From Octopus vulgaris (lineage: Eukaryota), in the NCBI GenBank assembly GCA_951406725.2, contig OX597825.1:56482001-56546000 (forward strand): a stretch of 64,000 nt of DNA, in the 5' to 3' direction. Below, one piece after another: positions 14,757 to 21,988 of the stretch. The position numbers and the translations under genes are program-made. The stretch's first letter is position 1. Every line of letters begins with the position of its first letter. A model generated the notes under the pieces. It saw only the letters and a list, made by a program, of their open reading frames with translations, had not been told where the DNA came from and searched no databases.

Positions 14757-14816
<60 letters not shown>

Positions 14817-14819
<3 letters not shown>

Positions 14820-15951
14820 GGAGCATGGGGTATTTGAGGACATACCTTTTTGGGGGCCACTGCTGCATTTTTTGTAAACTCTGTAAAATCTTTGTTTCAG
14901 AAAATATTAATGGCAGACCCTCAGCTTACTCAAGAAATGAAGAGGCATGCTGTTATTGTGTTTATAAAGGCTGAACATAGCGATTTAAAAATATCTCGAT
15001 TTTTAAAAGTTGCCAGATCTTTCATCTACAAAGTTTGTAAAGAGCTAGATACTGTAGATGGAAACGTGTCACTAGTGTCAACGAATAAAAAGTATTCTAA
15101 AAGGTCTGAAATCATAAGAACGCCTGAATTTATACAGCAAGTTCAACAGATCATTGATTACAATCCCAGAAAGTTCATGAGGTCAATTGCAAAAGATCTC
15201 CATATGTCAGAAGGAACAGTCAGAAATGTTGTGTACGAAGACATCAGATATAAGTCTTATATGATGAGGAGAGGTCAATTTGTTAGAAAAGGCAAAAGAA
15301 AAGCACTACATCAGATCTAAATGGTTCTTAAACAAACTGAAAATCCAGCAGAAGAAGGTTTTATTTGGTTTTTCTCAAACTCTCCTGAAGTTCCAAGTGT
15401 TATGCATACAAAATTTCCAGCAACTGTTATGTTTTTAGGGGTTGCCAGCAATGAAGGACATGTGATGCCTCCTTACTTCTTTCCACAAGGCCTTAGAGTT
15501 AACTCTGCTGCCTACACTGAAGTCCTGAAAATAATTGTTAAGCCCTGGGTATACAGTGTATGCAATGGAAAGCCATGTGTTTCAGTAAGACTCTTGCACT
15601 ATCACACATGGCTCTAGTAACACAGGAATGGATGGTTGAAAATATTCATGATCACATAACCCCTAACATTTGGCTTCCTAATTCCCTAGATTTCAACCCA
15701 TTGGACTACTACATGTGGAGCGCTGTTGAGAAAGAAGTCGATGAACTCACCCAAAACACCAAAGATTCTTTGAAAGCTGGCATACACTGAGTAATGTCCA
15801 AAATGAACTAGGACCACTTCATTCGAGCATGTAGAAAAGAAGGTTTATTTTTATCCTCATAGCATTTTGTGATAAATAAAGTTAGTATATGTCATTACAT
15901 ATCTGTATTTTTATAGACATAAATCTATCCTCATGTACCTTACGCACCCTG
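14817..15951 (+). mobile_element. Tc1/mariner DNA transposon, maT/DD37D-like, decayed
   Basis: Imperfect TIRs cagggagcatggggtatttgagga / tcctcatgtaccttacgcaccctg in a TA context. Split transposase in ORFs 14850-15320, 15321-15617 and 15560-15790, with KFPATVM..GV.SNEGHVMPPYFFPQGLRVN and W.PNS.D.NPLDYY.W motifs. Confidence 0.9.
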
Positions 15952-15969
15952 TGTATATATATATTTTTT

Positions 15970-16022
15970 TTTTGTACTTGTTTCAGTCATTTGACTGCGG
16001 CCATGCTGGAGCACCGCTTTTA
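15970..16022 (-). mobile_element. SINE family B, 3' tail fragment
   Basis: cttgtttcagtcatttgactgcggccatgctggagcaccgc is the reverse complement of the tail of the 30348-30752 copy. Confidence 0.75.
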
Positions 16023-16025
16023 GAG

Positions 16026-16302
<277 letters not shown>

Positions 16303-16528
16303 TCAATATAGGGTGGCAAAAAAAAAATTTTGTAGAATTCTTTTGCCACCAGCGGCCTAGTAGGAAAAAAATTAAAATAGTCATAGACCATTTTTAAGTT
16401 CAACATCAACAATAAAGGAACGGCCATAATAGGCCATTCACCCACTAGAAATAACAGCCAAAGCTTCAACCGCAAATAAAAGTTAATTCAGTAAACCAGG
16501 AGAAAATTTAAAAAACATTTACCCTGTA

Positions 16529-16635
16529 ATTTCTTATACGATATACCGTTTCATCTGCTGATTAATGGTAAACTAACCTGATTAAATTAAATCAAGCCAA
16601 TCTTCCACAGGCCCTCAGATTCTTCAGTAAGAAAT
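16529..16635 (-). ncRNA. Type I hammerhead ribozyme, copy 1
   Basis: Minus strand: ATTTCTTA (stem I) CTGAAGA (core) ATCTG-[58 nt]-CAGAT (stem II) GAA ACGG-TATA-TCGT (stem III) A / TAAGAAAT (stem I). GUA cleavage triplet; predicted cut between 16537 and 16536. Confidence 0.85.
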
Positions 16636-17022
16636 AGCCCAAGACGGAACAGATATTTTCACGAGGCATTTCCGACGTTGCCAAGTTTATATCTGACCTA
16701 AAATTTTCAAATCGTCGCACTCGCGCCAAATTTATCGGCAGCAAATAAATATAAGCTGTCGATTCCATTACGGAATTAACCAGAAAATTCATAATTAATC
16801 AATATAGGGTGGCAAAAAAAAATTTTGTAGAATTCTGTTGCCACCAGCGGCCTAGTAGGAAAAAATTAAAATAGTCATAGACCATTTTTAAGTTCAACAT
16901 CAACAATAAAGGAACGGCCATAATAGGCCATTCACCCACTAGAAATAACAGCCAAAGCTTCAACCGCAAATAAAAGTTAATTCAGTAAACCAGGAGAAAA
17001 TTTAAAAAACATTTACCCTGTA

Positions 17023-17129
17023 ATTTCTTATACGATATACCGTTTCATCTGCTGATTAATGGTAAACTAACCTGATTAAATTAAATCAAGCCAATCTTCC
17101 ACAGGCCCTCAGATTCTTCAGTAAGAAAT
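17023..17129 (-). ncRNA. Type I hammerhead ribozyme, copy 2
   Basis: Same motif as copy 1. Confidence 0.85.
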
Positions 17130-17514
17130 AGCCCAAGACGGAACAGATATTTTCACGAGGCATTTCCGACGTTGCCAAGTTTATATCTGACCTAAAATTT
17201 TCAAATCGTCGCACTCGCGCCAAATTTATCGGCAGCAAATAAATATAAGCTGTCGATTCCATTACGGAATTAACCAGAAAATTCATAATTAATCAATATA
17301 GGGTGGCAAAAAAAAATTTTGTAGAATTCTTTGCCACCAGCGGCCTAGTAGGAAAAATTAAAATAGTCATAGACCATTTTTAAGTTCAACATCAACAATA
17401 AAGGAACGGCCATAATAGGCCATTCACCCACTAGAAATAACAGCCAAAGCTTCAACCGCAAATAAAAGTTAATTCAGTAAACCAGGAGAAAATTTAAAAA
17501 ACATTTACCCTGTA

Positions 17515-17621
17515 ATTTCTTATACGATATACCGTTTCATCTGCTGATTAATGGTAAACTAACCTGATTAAATTAAATCAAGCCAATCTTCCACAGGCCC
17601 TCAGATTCTTCAGTAAGAAAT
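17515..17621 (-). ncRNA. Type I hammerhead ribozyme, copy 3
   Basis: Same motif as copy 1. Confidence 0.85.
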
Positions 17622-18009
17622 AGCCCAAGACGGAACAGATATTTTCACGAGGCATTTCCGACGTTGCCAAGTTTATATCTGACCTAAAATTTTCAAATCG
17701 TCGCACTCGCGCCAAATTTATCGGCAGCAAATAAATATAAGCTGTCGATTCCATTACGGAATTAACCAGAAAATTCATAATTAATCAATATAGGGTGGCA
17801 AAAAAAAAATTTCGTAGAATTCTTTTGCCACCAGCGGCCTAGTAGGAAAAAATTAAAATAGTCATAGACCATTTTTAAGTTCAACATCAACAATAAAGGA
17901 ACGGCCATAATAGGCCATTCACCCACTAGAAATAACAGCCAAAGCTTCAACCGCAAATAAAAGTTAATTCAGTAAACCAGGAGAAAATTTAAAAAACATT
18001 TACCCTGTA

Positions 18010-18116
18010 ATTTCTTATACGATATACCGTTTCATCTGCTGATTAATGGTAAACTAACCTGATTAAATTAAATCAAGCCAATCTTCCACAGGCCCTCAGA
18101 TTCTTCAGTAAGAAAT
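18010..18116 (-). ncRNA. Type I hammerhead ribozyme, copy 4
   Basis: Same motif as copy 1. Confidence 0.85.
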
Positions 18117-18502
18117 AGCCCAAGACGGAACAGATATTTTCACGAGGCATTTCCGACGTTGCCAAGTTTATATCTGACCTAAAATTTTCAAATCGTCGCA
18201 CTCGCGCCAAATTTATCGGCAGCAAATGAATATAAGCTGTCGATTCCATTACGGAATTAACCAGAAAATTCATAATTAATCAATATAGGGTGGCAAAAAA
18301 AATTTTGTAGAATTCTTTTGCCACCAGCGGCCTAGTAGGAAAAAATTAAAATAGTCATAGACCATTTTTAAGTTCAACATCAACAATAAAGGAACGGCCA
18401 TAATAGGCCATTCACCCACTAGAAATAACAGCCAAAGCTTCAACCGCAAATAAAAGTTAATTCAGTAAACCAGGAGAAAATTTAAAAAACATTTACCCTG
18501 TA

Positions 18503-18609
18503 ATTTCTTATACGATATACCGTTTCATCTGCTGATTAATGGTAAACTAACCTGATTAAATTAAATCAAGCCAATCTTCCACAGGCCCTCAGATTCTTCA
18601 GTAAGAAAT
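18503..18609 (-). ncRNA. Type I hammerhead ribozyme, copy 5
   Basis: Same motif as copy 1. Confidence 0.85.
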
Positions 18610-19006
18610 AGCCCAAGACGGAACAGATATTTTCACGAGGCATTTCCGACGTTGCCAAGTTTATATCTGACCTAAAATTTTCAAATCGTCGCACTCGCGC
18701 CACTCGCGCCAAATTTATCGGCAGCAAATAAATATAAGCTGTCGATTCCATTACGGAATTAACCAGAAAATTCATAATTAATCAATATAGGGTGGCAAAA
18801 AAAAAATTTCGTAGAATTCTTTTGCCACCAGCGGCCTAGTAGGAAAAAATTAAAATAGTCATAGACCATTTTTAAGTTCAACATCAACAATAAAGGAACG
18901 GCCATAATAGGCCATTCACCCACTAGAAATAACAGCCAAAGCTTCAACCGCAAATAAAAGTTAATTCAGTAAACCAGGAGAAAATTTAAAAAACATTTAC
19001 CCTGTA

Positions 19007-19113
19007 ATTTCTTATACGATATACCGTTTCATCTGCTGATTAATGGTAAACTAACCTGATTAAATTAAATCAAGCCAATCTTCCACAGGCCCTCAGATTC
19101 TTCAGTAAGAAAT
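19007..19113 (-). ncRNA. Type I hammerhead ribozyme, copy 6
   Basis: Same motif as copy 1. Confidence 0.85.
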
Positions 19114-19488
19114 AGCCCAAGACGGAACAGATATTTTCACGAGGCATTTCCGACGTTGCCAAGTTTATATCTGACCTAAAATTTTCAAATCGTCGCACTC
19201 GCGCCAAATTTATCGGCAGCAAATAAATATAAGCTGTCGATTCCATTACGGAATTAACCAGAAAATTCATAATTAATCAATATAGGGTGGCAAAAAAAAT
19301 TTTGTAGAATTCTGTTGCCACCAGCGGCCTAGTAGGAAAAAATTAAAATAGTCATAGACCATTTTTAAGTTCAACATCAACAATAAAGGAACGGCGGTTG
19401 AAGCTTTGCGGTTGAAGCTTTGGCTGTTATTTCTAGTGGGTGAATGGCCTATTATGGCCGTTCCTTTATTGTTGATATATATATATAT

Positions 19489-19710
19489 ATATTTTCAACT
19501 GTGTAGGATTATTTGAATCTGGTAACGATTACACACCATCTTGCATTCACTTGTACGAGTAAATTTCACTACACACACACGCACGCATATATATATATAT
19601 ATATATATATATGCGTGCGTGTGTGTGTAGTGAAATTTACTCGTACAAGTGAATGAAAGATGGTGTGTAATCGTTACCAGATTCTAATAATCCTACACAG
19701 TTGAAAATAT
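19489..19710. repeat. 222-bp near-perfect palindrome centred on (AT)n
   Basis: atattttcaactgtgtagg...gcacgc(at)n gcgtgc...cctacacagttgaaaatat; only 2 mismatches seen between the arms. Confidence 0.95.
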
Positions 19711-20182: not shown

Positions 20183-21410
20183 TTAGGTCGACAATTATAA
20201 AATTTACAGTAAGGTAAATTTTAACAGCTGCTCATCTTGCGCCATTATTATATTTTGACAATCTTACTTTTTTGTTAGAAAGCTAACACATCTATTTCTT
20301 TATTCTAACTCATTTTGCGCTTTATAAAGTATTCATAAATCGTTTTTTTTGCTATTTTTGTTTAGAGATGGATAAGTCGGGTATTCGTCCAGTTTTGAAA
20401 TATGAGTTCTTTCTTGAAAATATAGCATCACAGACAGCTCGGAATATTAATGAAGCATTCCATTCTAATGTTATTACACAGCAGACTGTATAAAATTGAT
20501 TTGCAAAATTTCATTCTGGTAACTTTGACCTCAAAAATGAGCAACGCGGTAGACGAGAAACAAAGGTGGATAATGACGAACTGAAAGCCACTGTCGAGTC
20601 AGATCCATCTGAAAGTGCCCGTGAATTATCACTGTTGTTTGGTGTTAGCAAGCAAAGAACATTGACTCACCTAGTTCAAATCGGTAAAGTGAAAACTTTG
20701 GATAAGTGGGTTCCACATGAACTCACTGAAAATCAGAAACAGCAACGTTTGGAAGCCTTCATTATGCTATTTTCTCGTCACAAAAATTAATCATTTTTTA
20801 ATCAAATTGTAGCATTTGTTGAGAAATGGATCCAGTACAACAACCGTAAACGTTCAAAAAGCCAAATTCATCAGAAGAAACTGATAGTGCGTGTTTGGTG
20901 GTCTGGCGCAGGTGTGATCCATTATGATTTCATTAAACCTGGCTCATCAATCACGGCTGAAGTATACTGCAGCCAACTGGACCAAATGATGCAGAAACTT
21001 ACAAAAAATAGCCTAGATTAGTGGACAAATTTTATTGCAAGACAACGCCAGACTACTCCTTGCAAAAATGACATTGTCGAAACAACAGGAGTTGGAGTTG
21101 GAAATTCTCCATCATCCACCATACTTATCTGATCTTGTCCCCACTGACTACCACTTCTTCCAGAATTTGGATAAATTTTTGATTGGAAAAAAATTTGATT
21201 CCGATGATGCTGTAAAACAGGCCTTCCAAGATTTTATTGACTCTAGATTGCCAGGTTGTTACAGTTCTGGGTCGGACGAGCTACCACTGAAATGGCAAAA
21301 GTGTATCGACAATATGGGTACATACTTTGATGCATAAAACTATTCGTTGTATATTTAAAACATTAGCAAACTTCTTTTCTTTTCTACAAATTTCATACAT
21401 AACGACCTAA
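20183..21410 (+). mobile_element. mariner (DD34D, Hsmar1/cecropia-like) transposon, decayed
   Basis: TA-flanked TIRs ttaggtcg... / ...cgacctaa. Transposase from ATG 20368 (MDKSGIR..LKYEF) through LDKWVPHELT, QDNAR and HPPYLSDLVPTDYHFF to KWQKCIDNMGTYFD (21337). Several stops and deletions. Confidence 0.95.
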
Positions 21411-21424
21411 TATTTACTGCCATT

Positions 21425-21988
21425 AAGGCGGCGAGCTGGAAAAAACATTATCACGCCGGGCGAAATGCTTAGCGGTATTTCGTCTGCCGTTACGTTCTGA
21501 GTTCAAATTCCGCCGAGGTCGACTTTGCCTTTCATCCTGTCGGGGTCGATAAATTAAATACCAGTTACGCACTGAGGTCGATGTAATCGACTTAATACCT
21601 TGTTTGTCCCCTCTGTGTTTAGCCCCTTGTGGGTAATAAAGAAATAGGTATTTCGTCTGCCGTTACATTCTGAGTTCAAATTCCGCCGAGGTCGACTTTA
21701 CCTTTCATCCTTTCGGGGTCGATAAATTAAGTACCAGTTATGCACTGGGGTCGATATAATCAACTTAATCCGTCTGTCTGTCTTTGTTTGTCTCCTCTGT
21801 GTTTAGCCCCTTGTGGGTAGTAAAGAAATAGGTATTTCGTCTGTCTTTACGTGTTGGGTTCAAATTCCGCCGAGTTCGACTTTGCCTTTCATCCTTTCGG
21901 GATACCAGTTGCGTACTTGGGTTGATCTTAGTGGCTGGCCCATTCCCCCAAAATTTCGGGCGTTGTGCCAAGAGGAGGAAATATTATT
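21425..21988 (+). mobile_element. SINE family A head-to-tail trimer
   Basis: Full unit 21425-21647, then two 5'-truncated units starting at ggtatttcgtctg (21648 and 21831). Confidence 0.9.

What the first reader, a model, noticed from the sequence alone, without database searches (positions are those of the whole stretch)
19376..19491. The array ends in an inverted fold-back with microhomology junctions
Seen: the last partial unit stops at ...aaaggaacggc (19395) and switches to the reverse complement of the adjacent unit segment. GCGGTTGAAGCTTT appears twice (19394-19407, 19408-19421), then the inverted copy runs to 19476 and joins (AT)n. The junctions share GC, TTT and AT microhomology, and 19376-19395 pairs with 19457-19476. 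This end corresponds to the 5' end of the ribozyme-sense RNA. Established: Penelope insertions often carry inverted 5' segments. Inference: this is a footprint of RT template switching or second-strand priming, favouring a retrotransposition origin over simple unequal crossing-over.
Basis: partly seen in the sequence, partly recalled or inferred. Interest (0 to 1): 0.7.

Follow-up and report, generated by a model that had tools for sequence, protein, structure and literature searches.

The report
Ribozyme retroelement copied from both ends
The back-to-back end is real and is the regular footprint of a family of small jumping elements with a self-cutting-RNA motif, joined to TA repeats at two fixed points, and it likely forms when a Penelope-type enzyme copies one RNA from both sides of a DNA break and repair stitches the two copies together.

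Summary
It is not a one-off fold-back. The 495-bp array is a hammerhead retrozyme. Of 136 insertions examined, 105 are inverted. 100 of those pair one fixed end (A, unit 492) with a second (B, unit 106, here 19476); none pair A-A or B-B, and 103 sit in (TA)n. This is the known Penelope layout (inverted 5'-truncated copy, 'tail' at one end), with a tail of about 109 nt. So 19476 is likely a second priming site, not the RNA 5' end; only the inner joint is variable. Short arms pile up at the predicted ribozyme cut, both together (18/3/5/74, p=1e-12). The two arms of a locus share variants, two of three tested found nowhere else in the assembly. Best model: two reverse transcriptases primed by the two target strands copy one RNA (cut monomer or circle), then microhomology end joining. 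Simple snap-back fits 27 of 100 loci and not this one. No partner enzyme was identified, and reads did not span this joint. The scan reached the same reading earlier on another piece of this genome (e1-8667199).

The parts
16183..16299 (.). (TA)58 target microsatellite on the A side
   Evidence: 103 of 105 inverted insertions have (TA)n on both sides
16298..19395 (-). Arm A: 6.26 tandem 492-502-bp retrozyme units, from fixed end A (unit ~492-1) to unit 125; the RNA is the minus strand
   Evidence: 845 exact (TA)-joined A ends genome-wide
16299..16404 (-). 'Tail' between fixed ends A and B (about 109 nt), with a strong hairpin at 16312-16350
16529..16635 (-). Type I hammerhead motif, unit 1; predicted cut between 16537 and 16536
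17023..17129 (-). Type I hammerhead motif, unit 2
17515..17621 (-). Type I hammerhead motif, unit 3
18010..18116 (-). Type I hammerhead motif, unit 4
18503..18609 (-). Type I hammerhead motif, unit 5
19007..19113 (-). Type I hammerhead motif, unit 6: 8-bp stem I, CUGAAGA, long stem II, GAAA, 3-bp stem III, GUA; predicted cut between 19015 and 19014 (unit 238|237)
   Evidence: motif search finds it on the minus strand only; constrained fold -29.7 vs MFE -31.4 kcal/mol and paired changes among copies; no Rfam hit
19394..19395 (.). GC microhomology where arm A's end joins the inverted sequence
19394..19408 (+). Short templated copy of arm B's inner part (unit 173 to 159; net insert 19396-19404), giving the 14-nt direct repeat
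19405..19408 (.). TTTG microhomology of the final join
19405..19476 (+). Arm B: inverted 72 nt, unit 177 to 106, ending at fixed end B
   Evidence: 181 exact (TA)-joined B ends genome-wide
19477..19492 (.). (AT)8 on the B side
19489..19710 (.). Single-copy inverted duplication of host flank (111-nt arms, 2 mismatches) centred on (TA)13 at 19587-19612; link to the insertion not shown

Best explanation
The inverted end is the shorter arm of a two-armed insertion with two fixed outer ends in (TA)n, likely made when a Penelope-type endonuclease/reverse transcriptase nicked both strands of the target and copied one ribozyme-bearing RNA from two start sites at once. SHOWN: each inverted insertion has one A end and one B end about 109 nt apart on the unit; the inner joint is variable, with 2-4-nt microhomology or templated inserts; short arms stop together at the predicted hammerhead cut; both arms share variants. 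INFERRED: (1) Arrays are transcribed on the minus strand and self-cleave to linear monomers, part of which circularise. (2) A Penelope-like protein, probably a dimer, binds one RNA and nicks both strands of (TA)n. (3) One 3' end primes cDNA at site A and the other at site B; one unit offers one of each, which explains the strict A-B pairing. (4) Penelope RTs lack RNase H (recalled), so the trailing enzyme can displace the leading cDNA. On a cut monomer both run off at the ribozyme cut; on a circle they go round repeatedly, as arm A did here (6.26 turns). (5) The two cDNA 3' ends are trimmed and joined by microhomology end joining. Here arm A's ...GGC end annealed to arm B at GC, copied about 13 nt, slipped and re-annealed at TTTG, which left GCGGTTGAAGCTTT twice.
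For: A-B 100, A-A 0, B-B 0, one odd end 5, of 105 inverted among 136 loci. In the end-anchored samples alone: B-anchored 43 of 43 inverted loci end in A; A-anchored 25 of 28 end in B, none in A. Arms that reach unit 205 stop in 205-243 in 22 of 86 (A) and 23 of 93 (B), against 2 and 2 in the next 39 nt. Both arms stop there together: 18/3/5/74, odds ratio 89, p=1e-12. Arm-to-arm distance is 0.33% within a locus and 2.8% between loci, n=92. Variants in every unit of both arms and nowhere else in the assembly: L047 5 of 5 matches, L094 9 of 9. This array's 458T is in all six units, with 5 of 5 exact matches genome-wide in this array. Microhomology of 2 nt or more in 26 of 34 direct joins against 17.8% by chance; 28 of 62 young joints carry inserts. 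One contig of a run guessed to be RNA loops through the whole unit (X8). A young intact RT + GIY-YIG element of this genome has the same grammar: two termini 38-40 nt apart into (TA)n, and 2 of 2 inverted copies pair tail+ with tail-. In vitro, a Penelope-like protein cuts and extends both target strands, starts at two RNA sites that bound the tail, and is predicted to be a dimer (PMC11167929, main text read).
Against: No autonomous partner with DNA similarity to the unit among 50 GIY-YIG loci. The tail is about 109 nt, against 30-40 nt in print. One of four 'private' variants tested is widespread (L054: 60 matches), and a source locus could be missing from a one-haplotype assembly. Variants shared by non-adjacent units (this array: 33C in units 4 and 6, 44G in units 2 and 7; 8 such variants in 7 other loci) are not expected from one monomer circle alone. 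11 of 80 loci not stopping at the cut have near-symmetric joints (2.4 expected), as a hairpin would give. Arms that pass the first cut are not clearly enriched at later cuts (16 of 137, p=0.07), which leaves circle against uncut multimer open. PMC11167929 saw no strand preference between the two start sites and no need for ribozyme cleavage in vitro. 31 of 136 loci were scored as one-armed. The looped X8 contig fits a tandem transcript or DNA as well. Cleavage and circles were not tested.
Confidence: 0.68

Rival explanations
1. One cDNA is made, folds back on itself, is copied, and the endonuclease cuts the copy at the second fixed site; the perfect palindrome then loses part of its centre by asymmetric deletion (self-priming, PMC3846280; 'EN-mediated resolution' of the tail, PMC8557442; the first reader's fold-back).
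For: It also predicts A-B pairing, shared variants and joint stops at the RNA end. 11 of 80 loci have joints symmetric within 5 nt (p=0.0002). One unit-level variant is mirrored across a symmetric joint (L060).
Against: Only 27 of 100 loci fit strict snap-back and in 36 neither arm contains the other. Among the 18 short loci stopping at the cut, B reaches further than A in 13, while B lacks the tail that A has. Here it would need about 3 kb deleted from one side. Mirrored variants: 2 shared, 59 not (uninformative if they arose after insertion). Both strands are extended in vitro (PMC11167929).
Confidence: 0.17
2. Both target strands prime cDNA, but on two separate RNA molecules from the same source locus, each bound by one subunit that is set on site A or site B.
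For: It fits the fixed ends, variable joint, microhomology and shared subfamily variants.
Against: It needs an extra rule for strict A-B pairing and for both arms stopping at the cut together. Variants unique to one locus in the whole assembly lie in both arms.
Confidence: 0.09
3. DNA-level origin: a satellite or Foldback-like DNA transposon rearranged by unequal crossing-over and replication template switching, with no RNA step.
For: Variants shared by non-adjacent units point to some later exchange. (TA)n is fragile, and (TA)-centred palindromes occur in the genome.
Against: The two ends differ and are fixed while the centre is random; arms stop at the ribozyme cut; the hammerhead core is kept with paired changes; copies are dispersed over many chromosomes.
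Confidence: 0.03
4. Assembly or long-read fold-back artefact at this joint.
For: No contig of four public runs bridged this joint.
Against: 105 loci share the layout with fixed ends; the joint is asymmetric with a templated insert; a short-read contig holds an inversion joint of another copy (X9).
Confidence: 0.02
5. L1-type twin priming, where the second primer anneals at a random internal site and the first cDNA stops there.
For: At this locus arm A ends 20 nt past the start of arm B.
Against: The second start is fixed, and arm A ends near it in 9 of 100 loci against 10.3 expected.
Confidence: 0.01

Closest known systems
Insertions of endonuclease-bearing Penelope-like elements with an inverted 5'-truncated copy and a one-sided tail (PMC8557442 and PMC3846280, passages read)
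   Same: Partial tandem plus an inverted 5'-truncated copy; extension at one end only; (TA)n bias; hammerhead upstream of the termini.
   Different: Non-coding; both arms can be multi-unit; tail about 109 nt instead of 30-40; those papers ascribe the layout to self-priming or endonuclease resolution.
PAc (Poseidon of Anolis carolinensis) two-site internal initiation (PMC11167929, main text read)
   Same: Two fixed RT start sites bound the tail; AT-rich target; both strands cut and extended; sites lie downstream of the hammerhead.
   Different: In vitro either strand used either site and uncut RNA was the main template; here the sites are strictly paired and many arms end at the ribozyme cut.
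Metazoan non-LTR retrozymes (PMC7229834, passages; bioRxiv 10.64898/2026.07.22.740005, parts 1-3 of 5, abstract to discussion)
   Same: Non-coding, low-GC tandem units each with a type I hammerhead; proposed mobilisation by PLEs through circular RNA.
   Different: Unit 495 nt, above the 170-400 nt of the first paper and within the 51-972 of the second. Neither main text describes inverted arms or fixed ends ('inverted' 0 hits; 1 hit, in a reference). The second paper discusses local amplification of the arrays.
Synthesis-dependent microhomology-mediated end joining (PMC2943611, search listing and start of abstract only; signature otherwise recalled)
   Same: 2-4-nt microhomology and short templated inserts that create a direct repeat at the joint.
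   Different: Here the joined ends are inferred to be two cDNAs.

Membership tests
Non-LTR retrozyme | Type I hammerhead in every tandem unit | tested here: met
   6 of 6 full units; paired stem changes and intact core among copies; Rfam models do not detect it
Non-LTR retrozyme | Dispersed tandem arrays of a short unit | tested here: met
   845 and 181 exact ends across chromosomes; 222 scored matches
Non-LTR retrozyme | No protein coded | tested here: inconclusive
   No tblastn match of the PLE protein anywhere in the window; no general ORF search was run on the unit
Non-LTR retrozyme | Expressed as linear and circular RNA | tested here: inconclusive
   The unit is in 4 of 4 runs guessed to be RNA and one contig loops through it; contigs cannot tell a circle from a tandem or from DNA
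Non-LTR retrozyme | Self-cleavage | not testable with these tools
   Indirect only: arms stop at the predicted cut
PLE-type insertion (works like) | Inverted 5'-truncated copy adjoining the tandem | tested here: met
   105 of 136
PLE-type insertion (works like) | Tail at one end only | tested here: met
   100 A-B, 0 A-A, 0 B-B
PLE-type insertion (works like) | Tail of 30-40 nt | tested here: not met
   About 109 nt
PLE-type insertion (works like) | AT-rich or microsatellite target | tested here: met
   103 of 105
Autonomous Penelope-like element | RT plus GIY-YIG ORF | tested here: not met
   None in the window
Derivative of a named PLE family | Sequence homology to the pLTR of an autonomous element | tested here: inconclusive
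   None among 50 GIY-YIG loci from 150 scored of 6136 candidates
L1 twin-priming inversion | First cDNA ends at a variable second priming site | tested here: not met
   9 of 100 against 10.3 expected

The most novel reading that the evidence does not exclude
One RNA molecule, either a ribozyme-cut monomer or its circle, is copied at the same time by two Penelope-type reverse transcriptases, each primed by one strand of a (TA)n break and locked to one of two start sites. This would be the general source of the PLE 'tail', of inverted pLTRs and of retrozyme arrays, which would be born full-length by rolling-circle reverse transcription. The flanking palindrome would record the target end snapping back on its own (TA)n before it primed.
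Probability: 0.5. Interest if true: 0.75.

Novelty: new variant of a known kind. Interest (0 to 1): 0.56.

Why it matters
How Penelope-like elements make their inverted repeats and tails, what the hammerhead is for, and whether retrozyme arrays arise by reverse transcription of circles or by local amplification are stated as open in the papers read. Hundreds of young copies of one non-coding element act as a natural experiment: strict pairing of two ends, joint stops at the ribozyme cut and locus-private variants across both arms give sharp predictions for the existing in vitro PLE system. The layout itself is a known PLE hallmark, and this one joint is ordinary within its family.

Tried and rejected
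Rfam at gathering score and by E-value: no ribozyme hit. Contigs of four runs laid on the joint: none bridged it, and none covered 19483-19629, which the tool flagged as a skipped repeat; no conclusion on the joint or on an empty allele. Search for the autonomous partner: one family accession was not in the library; 50 GIY-YIG loci gave no DNA match by blastn or nhmmer except L172, where a 57-nt B stub lies about 1.1 kb from an unrelated GIY-YIG fragment. Target-site duplications: 9 weak left/right flank similarities among 136 loci, not inspected singly; a duplication inside (TA)n cannot be seen. Enrichment of flank palindromes beside ends: the first test was inflated by masked runs. A stricter one gave 0.30 per kb within 100 nt against 0.06 beyond 1.5 kb, with mixed kinds. 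A (TA)-centred test gave about 4% at every distance (5 of 144, 6 of 161, 29 of 712), so enrichment is not shown. Stops at later ribozyme cuts: not significant. The L054 variant was not private. A Helitron-like reading of the hairpin plus CTAG was considered and dropped because neither end maps there. A Pfam check of the neighbouring transposase remnants failed on stop codons and was not repeated. Look-up of earlier findings by sequence returned nothing.

Full report
OBSERVATION. The window holds a tandem array of a 495-bp unit at 16298-19395 (6.3 copies, 98% identical), starting from (TA)58. Unit positions below count from 18778. The forward match ends at 19395 (unit 125). 19405-19476 is an exact reverse complement of unit 177 to 106, and 19394-19408 is a short extra copy of unit 173 to 159, which gives GCGGTTGAAGCTTT twice. 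19376-19395 pairs with 19457-19476. (AT)8 follows, then a palindrome of host DNA with 111-nt arms and two mismatches, centred on (TA)13 and single-copy in the genome.

THE UNIT. Rfam finds nothing. A motif search finds a type I hammerhead on the minus strand only: 8-bp stem I, CUGAAGA, a long stem II, GAAA, stem III and GUA, with the predicted cut at unit 238|237. It is in all six full units. The catalytic fold lies 1.7 kcal/mol above the minimum-energy fold. Among the commonest variants, only the free core position, GUA/GUC and stem positions change, including a G-C to A-U pair in stem II. Cleavage was not tested.

THE FAMILY. The genome (2.8 Gb) gave 222 scored matches to the unit, 181 exact (TA)-joined ends at unit 106 (end B) and 845 at unit about 492-1 (end A); the B pattern misses subfamilies that differ there. 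I fetched 37 loci from the unit search, 60 of the 181 B ends and 40 of the 845 A ends (the first listed, chromosomes C1-C7 and C1). I dropped L055 (duplicate of L031) and L165 (runs off the stretch) and added the window, leaving 136. Of these 105 are inverted and 31 were scored one-armed; some of the latter have a second arm too short for BLAST. Of the 105, 100 pair A with B, none pair A-A or B-B, 5 have one odd end, and 103 have (TA)n on both sides. Among the 100 listed positions of each end, by my reading, no two of the same kind lie within 10 kb. A 72%-identical old relative in L062 has the same layout. So 19476 is a fixed terminus and only the inner joint varies.

WHERE THE ARMS STOP. Of arms that reach unit 205, 22 of 86 A arms and 23 of 93 B arms stop in 205-243, against 2 and 2 in the next 39 nt. 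Both arms of a locus do so together (18/3/5/74, p=1e-12; anchored samples alone 18/3/4/43). This fits an RNA template whose 5' end was made by the ribozyme. Arms that pass the first cut are not clearly enriched at later cuts (16 of 137 against 7.9%, p=0.07), as expected of a circle or an uncut multimer.

ONE SOURCE FOR BOTH ARMS. The arms of a locus differ by 0.33%, arms of different loci by 2.8% (n=92). Four variants that looked private were searched genome-wide. L047 (5 matches) and L094 (9 matches) occur only in their own locus, in all units of both arms. The window's 458T occurs only in this array, in all six units; 69 of 71 loci covering the site have C. L054's variant is widespread (60 matches). 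A source could be absent from a one-haplotype assembly. Against a pure single-monomer circle, two variants here are shared by non-adjacent units, and 8 variants in 7 other loci are shared by only some units.

THE JOINT. In 62 of 63 young loci that could be read, 34 joints are direct, 26 of them with 2 nt or more of microhomology (17.8% by chance, p=1e-13); 28 carry inserts, many copied from the unit or stuttered, like the 9-nt insert here. This is the pattern of synthesis-dependent microhomology end joining (signature recalled; PMC2943611 seen only as a listing).

FOLD-BACK TESTED. A snap-back copy must be contained in the first arm and start just behind its end. That fits 27 of 100 loci; in 36 neither arm contains the other. 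Here B reaches 52 nt beyond A's end while being only 72 nt long. In the 18 short loci that stop at the cut, B reaches further in 13, A in 3, and 2 are equal. In favour of hairpins in a minority, 11 of 80 other loci have joints symmetric within 5 nt (2.4 expected); two cDNAs stopping at one RNA break would give the same. L1-type twin priming fails: 9 of 100 against 10.3.

THE ENZYME. A GIY-YIG search shows a young family with many intact 781-aa frames. L211 has RVT_1 (E 1.2e-6, just under the cut-off) and GIY-YIG, with a CX4CxxC motif before the nuclease as described for Neptune and Nematis (PMC8557442; clade not tested by a tree). It ends in (TA)n at two termini 38-40 nt apart, and its two inverted copies among 20 fetched loci (L205, L207) pair tail+ with tail-. 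It shows no DNA similarity to the unit, so it is a candidate helper and a parallel, not an identified partner.

READS. No listed contig of four runs bridged this joint; inconclusive. Four runs guessed to be RNA hold the unit; X8 has one 523-nt contig looping through it, and X9 has an opposite-strand joint of another copy.

MECHANISM. See Best explanation (0.68): dual target-primed reverse transcription of one RNA from sites A and B, run-off at the ribozyme cut or rolling on a circle, then microhomology end joining. The fixed ends, pairing, stops, shared variants and joint chemistry are shown; the enzyme, dimer, circle and single molecule are inferred. For the flanking palindrome, the simplest link is that the right-hand target end folded on its own (TA)n, copied about 100 nt of flank and then primed arm B. 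L112 has a perfect 95-nt case abutting its open end, but (TA)-centred palindromes were not enriched near ends in a loose test, so it may predate the insertion.

KNOWN AND NEW. An inverted 5'-truncated copy with a 30-40-bp tail at one end and (TA)n bias is described for PLEs (PMC8557442, PMC3846280; passages). Two start sites bounding the tail and extension of both strands are shown in vitro (PMC11167929; parts 1-2 of 4, whole main text). Retrozymes as PLE-mobilised elements with circular templates are proposed in PMC7229834 (passages), PMC4209133 (passages) and bioRxiv 10.64898/2026.07.22.740005 (parts 1-3 of 5); PMC6765202 was seen as passages. I found no paper reporting strict A-B pairing, joint stops at the ribozyme cut or a single template for both arms in eight searches. 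The library lacks most subscription papers, including the older Penelope ones, and I read no supplements; the insertion figures in those of PMC11167929 and PMC7229834 may bear on this. After I had formed this reading (stated), the scan's notes showed the same reading for this 495-bp family on another piece of the genome and for similar families here and elsewhere; these are unchecked AI notes, not independent support.

VERDICT. Observation confirmed; interpretation partly supported. The element works like a Penelope-type insertion and files as a non-LTR retrozyme, with cleavage and circles untested. It is a new variant of a known kind, interest 0.56.

Noticed in passing
window 19489-19710: Single-copy inverted duplication of host flank centred on (TA)13, abutting end B; L112 has a perfect 95-nt equivalent abutting the open end of a one-armed insertion. 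Possible snap-back of the target end at (TA)n.
   Followed up: partly
L200-L216, e.g. L211:861-5572: Young Penelope-like family with an intact 781-aa RT + GIY-YIG frame, (TA)n targets, a 38-40-nt tail and a degenerate hammerhead-like motif seen by eye about 60 nt before the 3' end.
   Followed up: partly
family-wide, unit 1-33: A second cluster of inner ends at the base of the tail hairpin (21 of 137 long arms by my count of the list, about 9 expected), possibly a reverse-transcriptase pause.
   Followed up: partly
L038:4590-4622, L039:4812-4842, window 19394-19408: Templated inserts at three joints come from the same stretch, unit 150-182, which holds the palindrome AAGCTT.
   Followed up: no
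window 18696-18712: A 7-8-nt local duplication (cactcgcgc twice) in unit 5 makes it 502 bp.
   Followed up: no
window about 14815-15955 and 20183-21415: Two broken Tc1/mariner-like transposase remnants flank the array, judged by eye; the Pfam check failed on stop codons.
   Followed up: no
window about 15975-16180 and 21427-21950: SINE-like repeats, judged by eye; the array sits in the (TA)n directly after the first, and the second forms a 173-bp partial tandem.
   Followed up: no
L062:7042-7369: An old relative (72% identical) with the same A-B inverted layout and a perfectly symmetric joint, about 2 kb from a young copy.
   Followed up: partly
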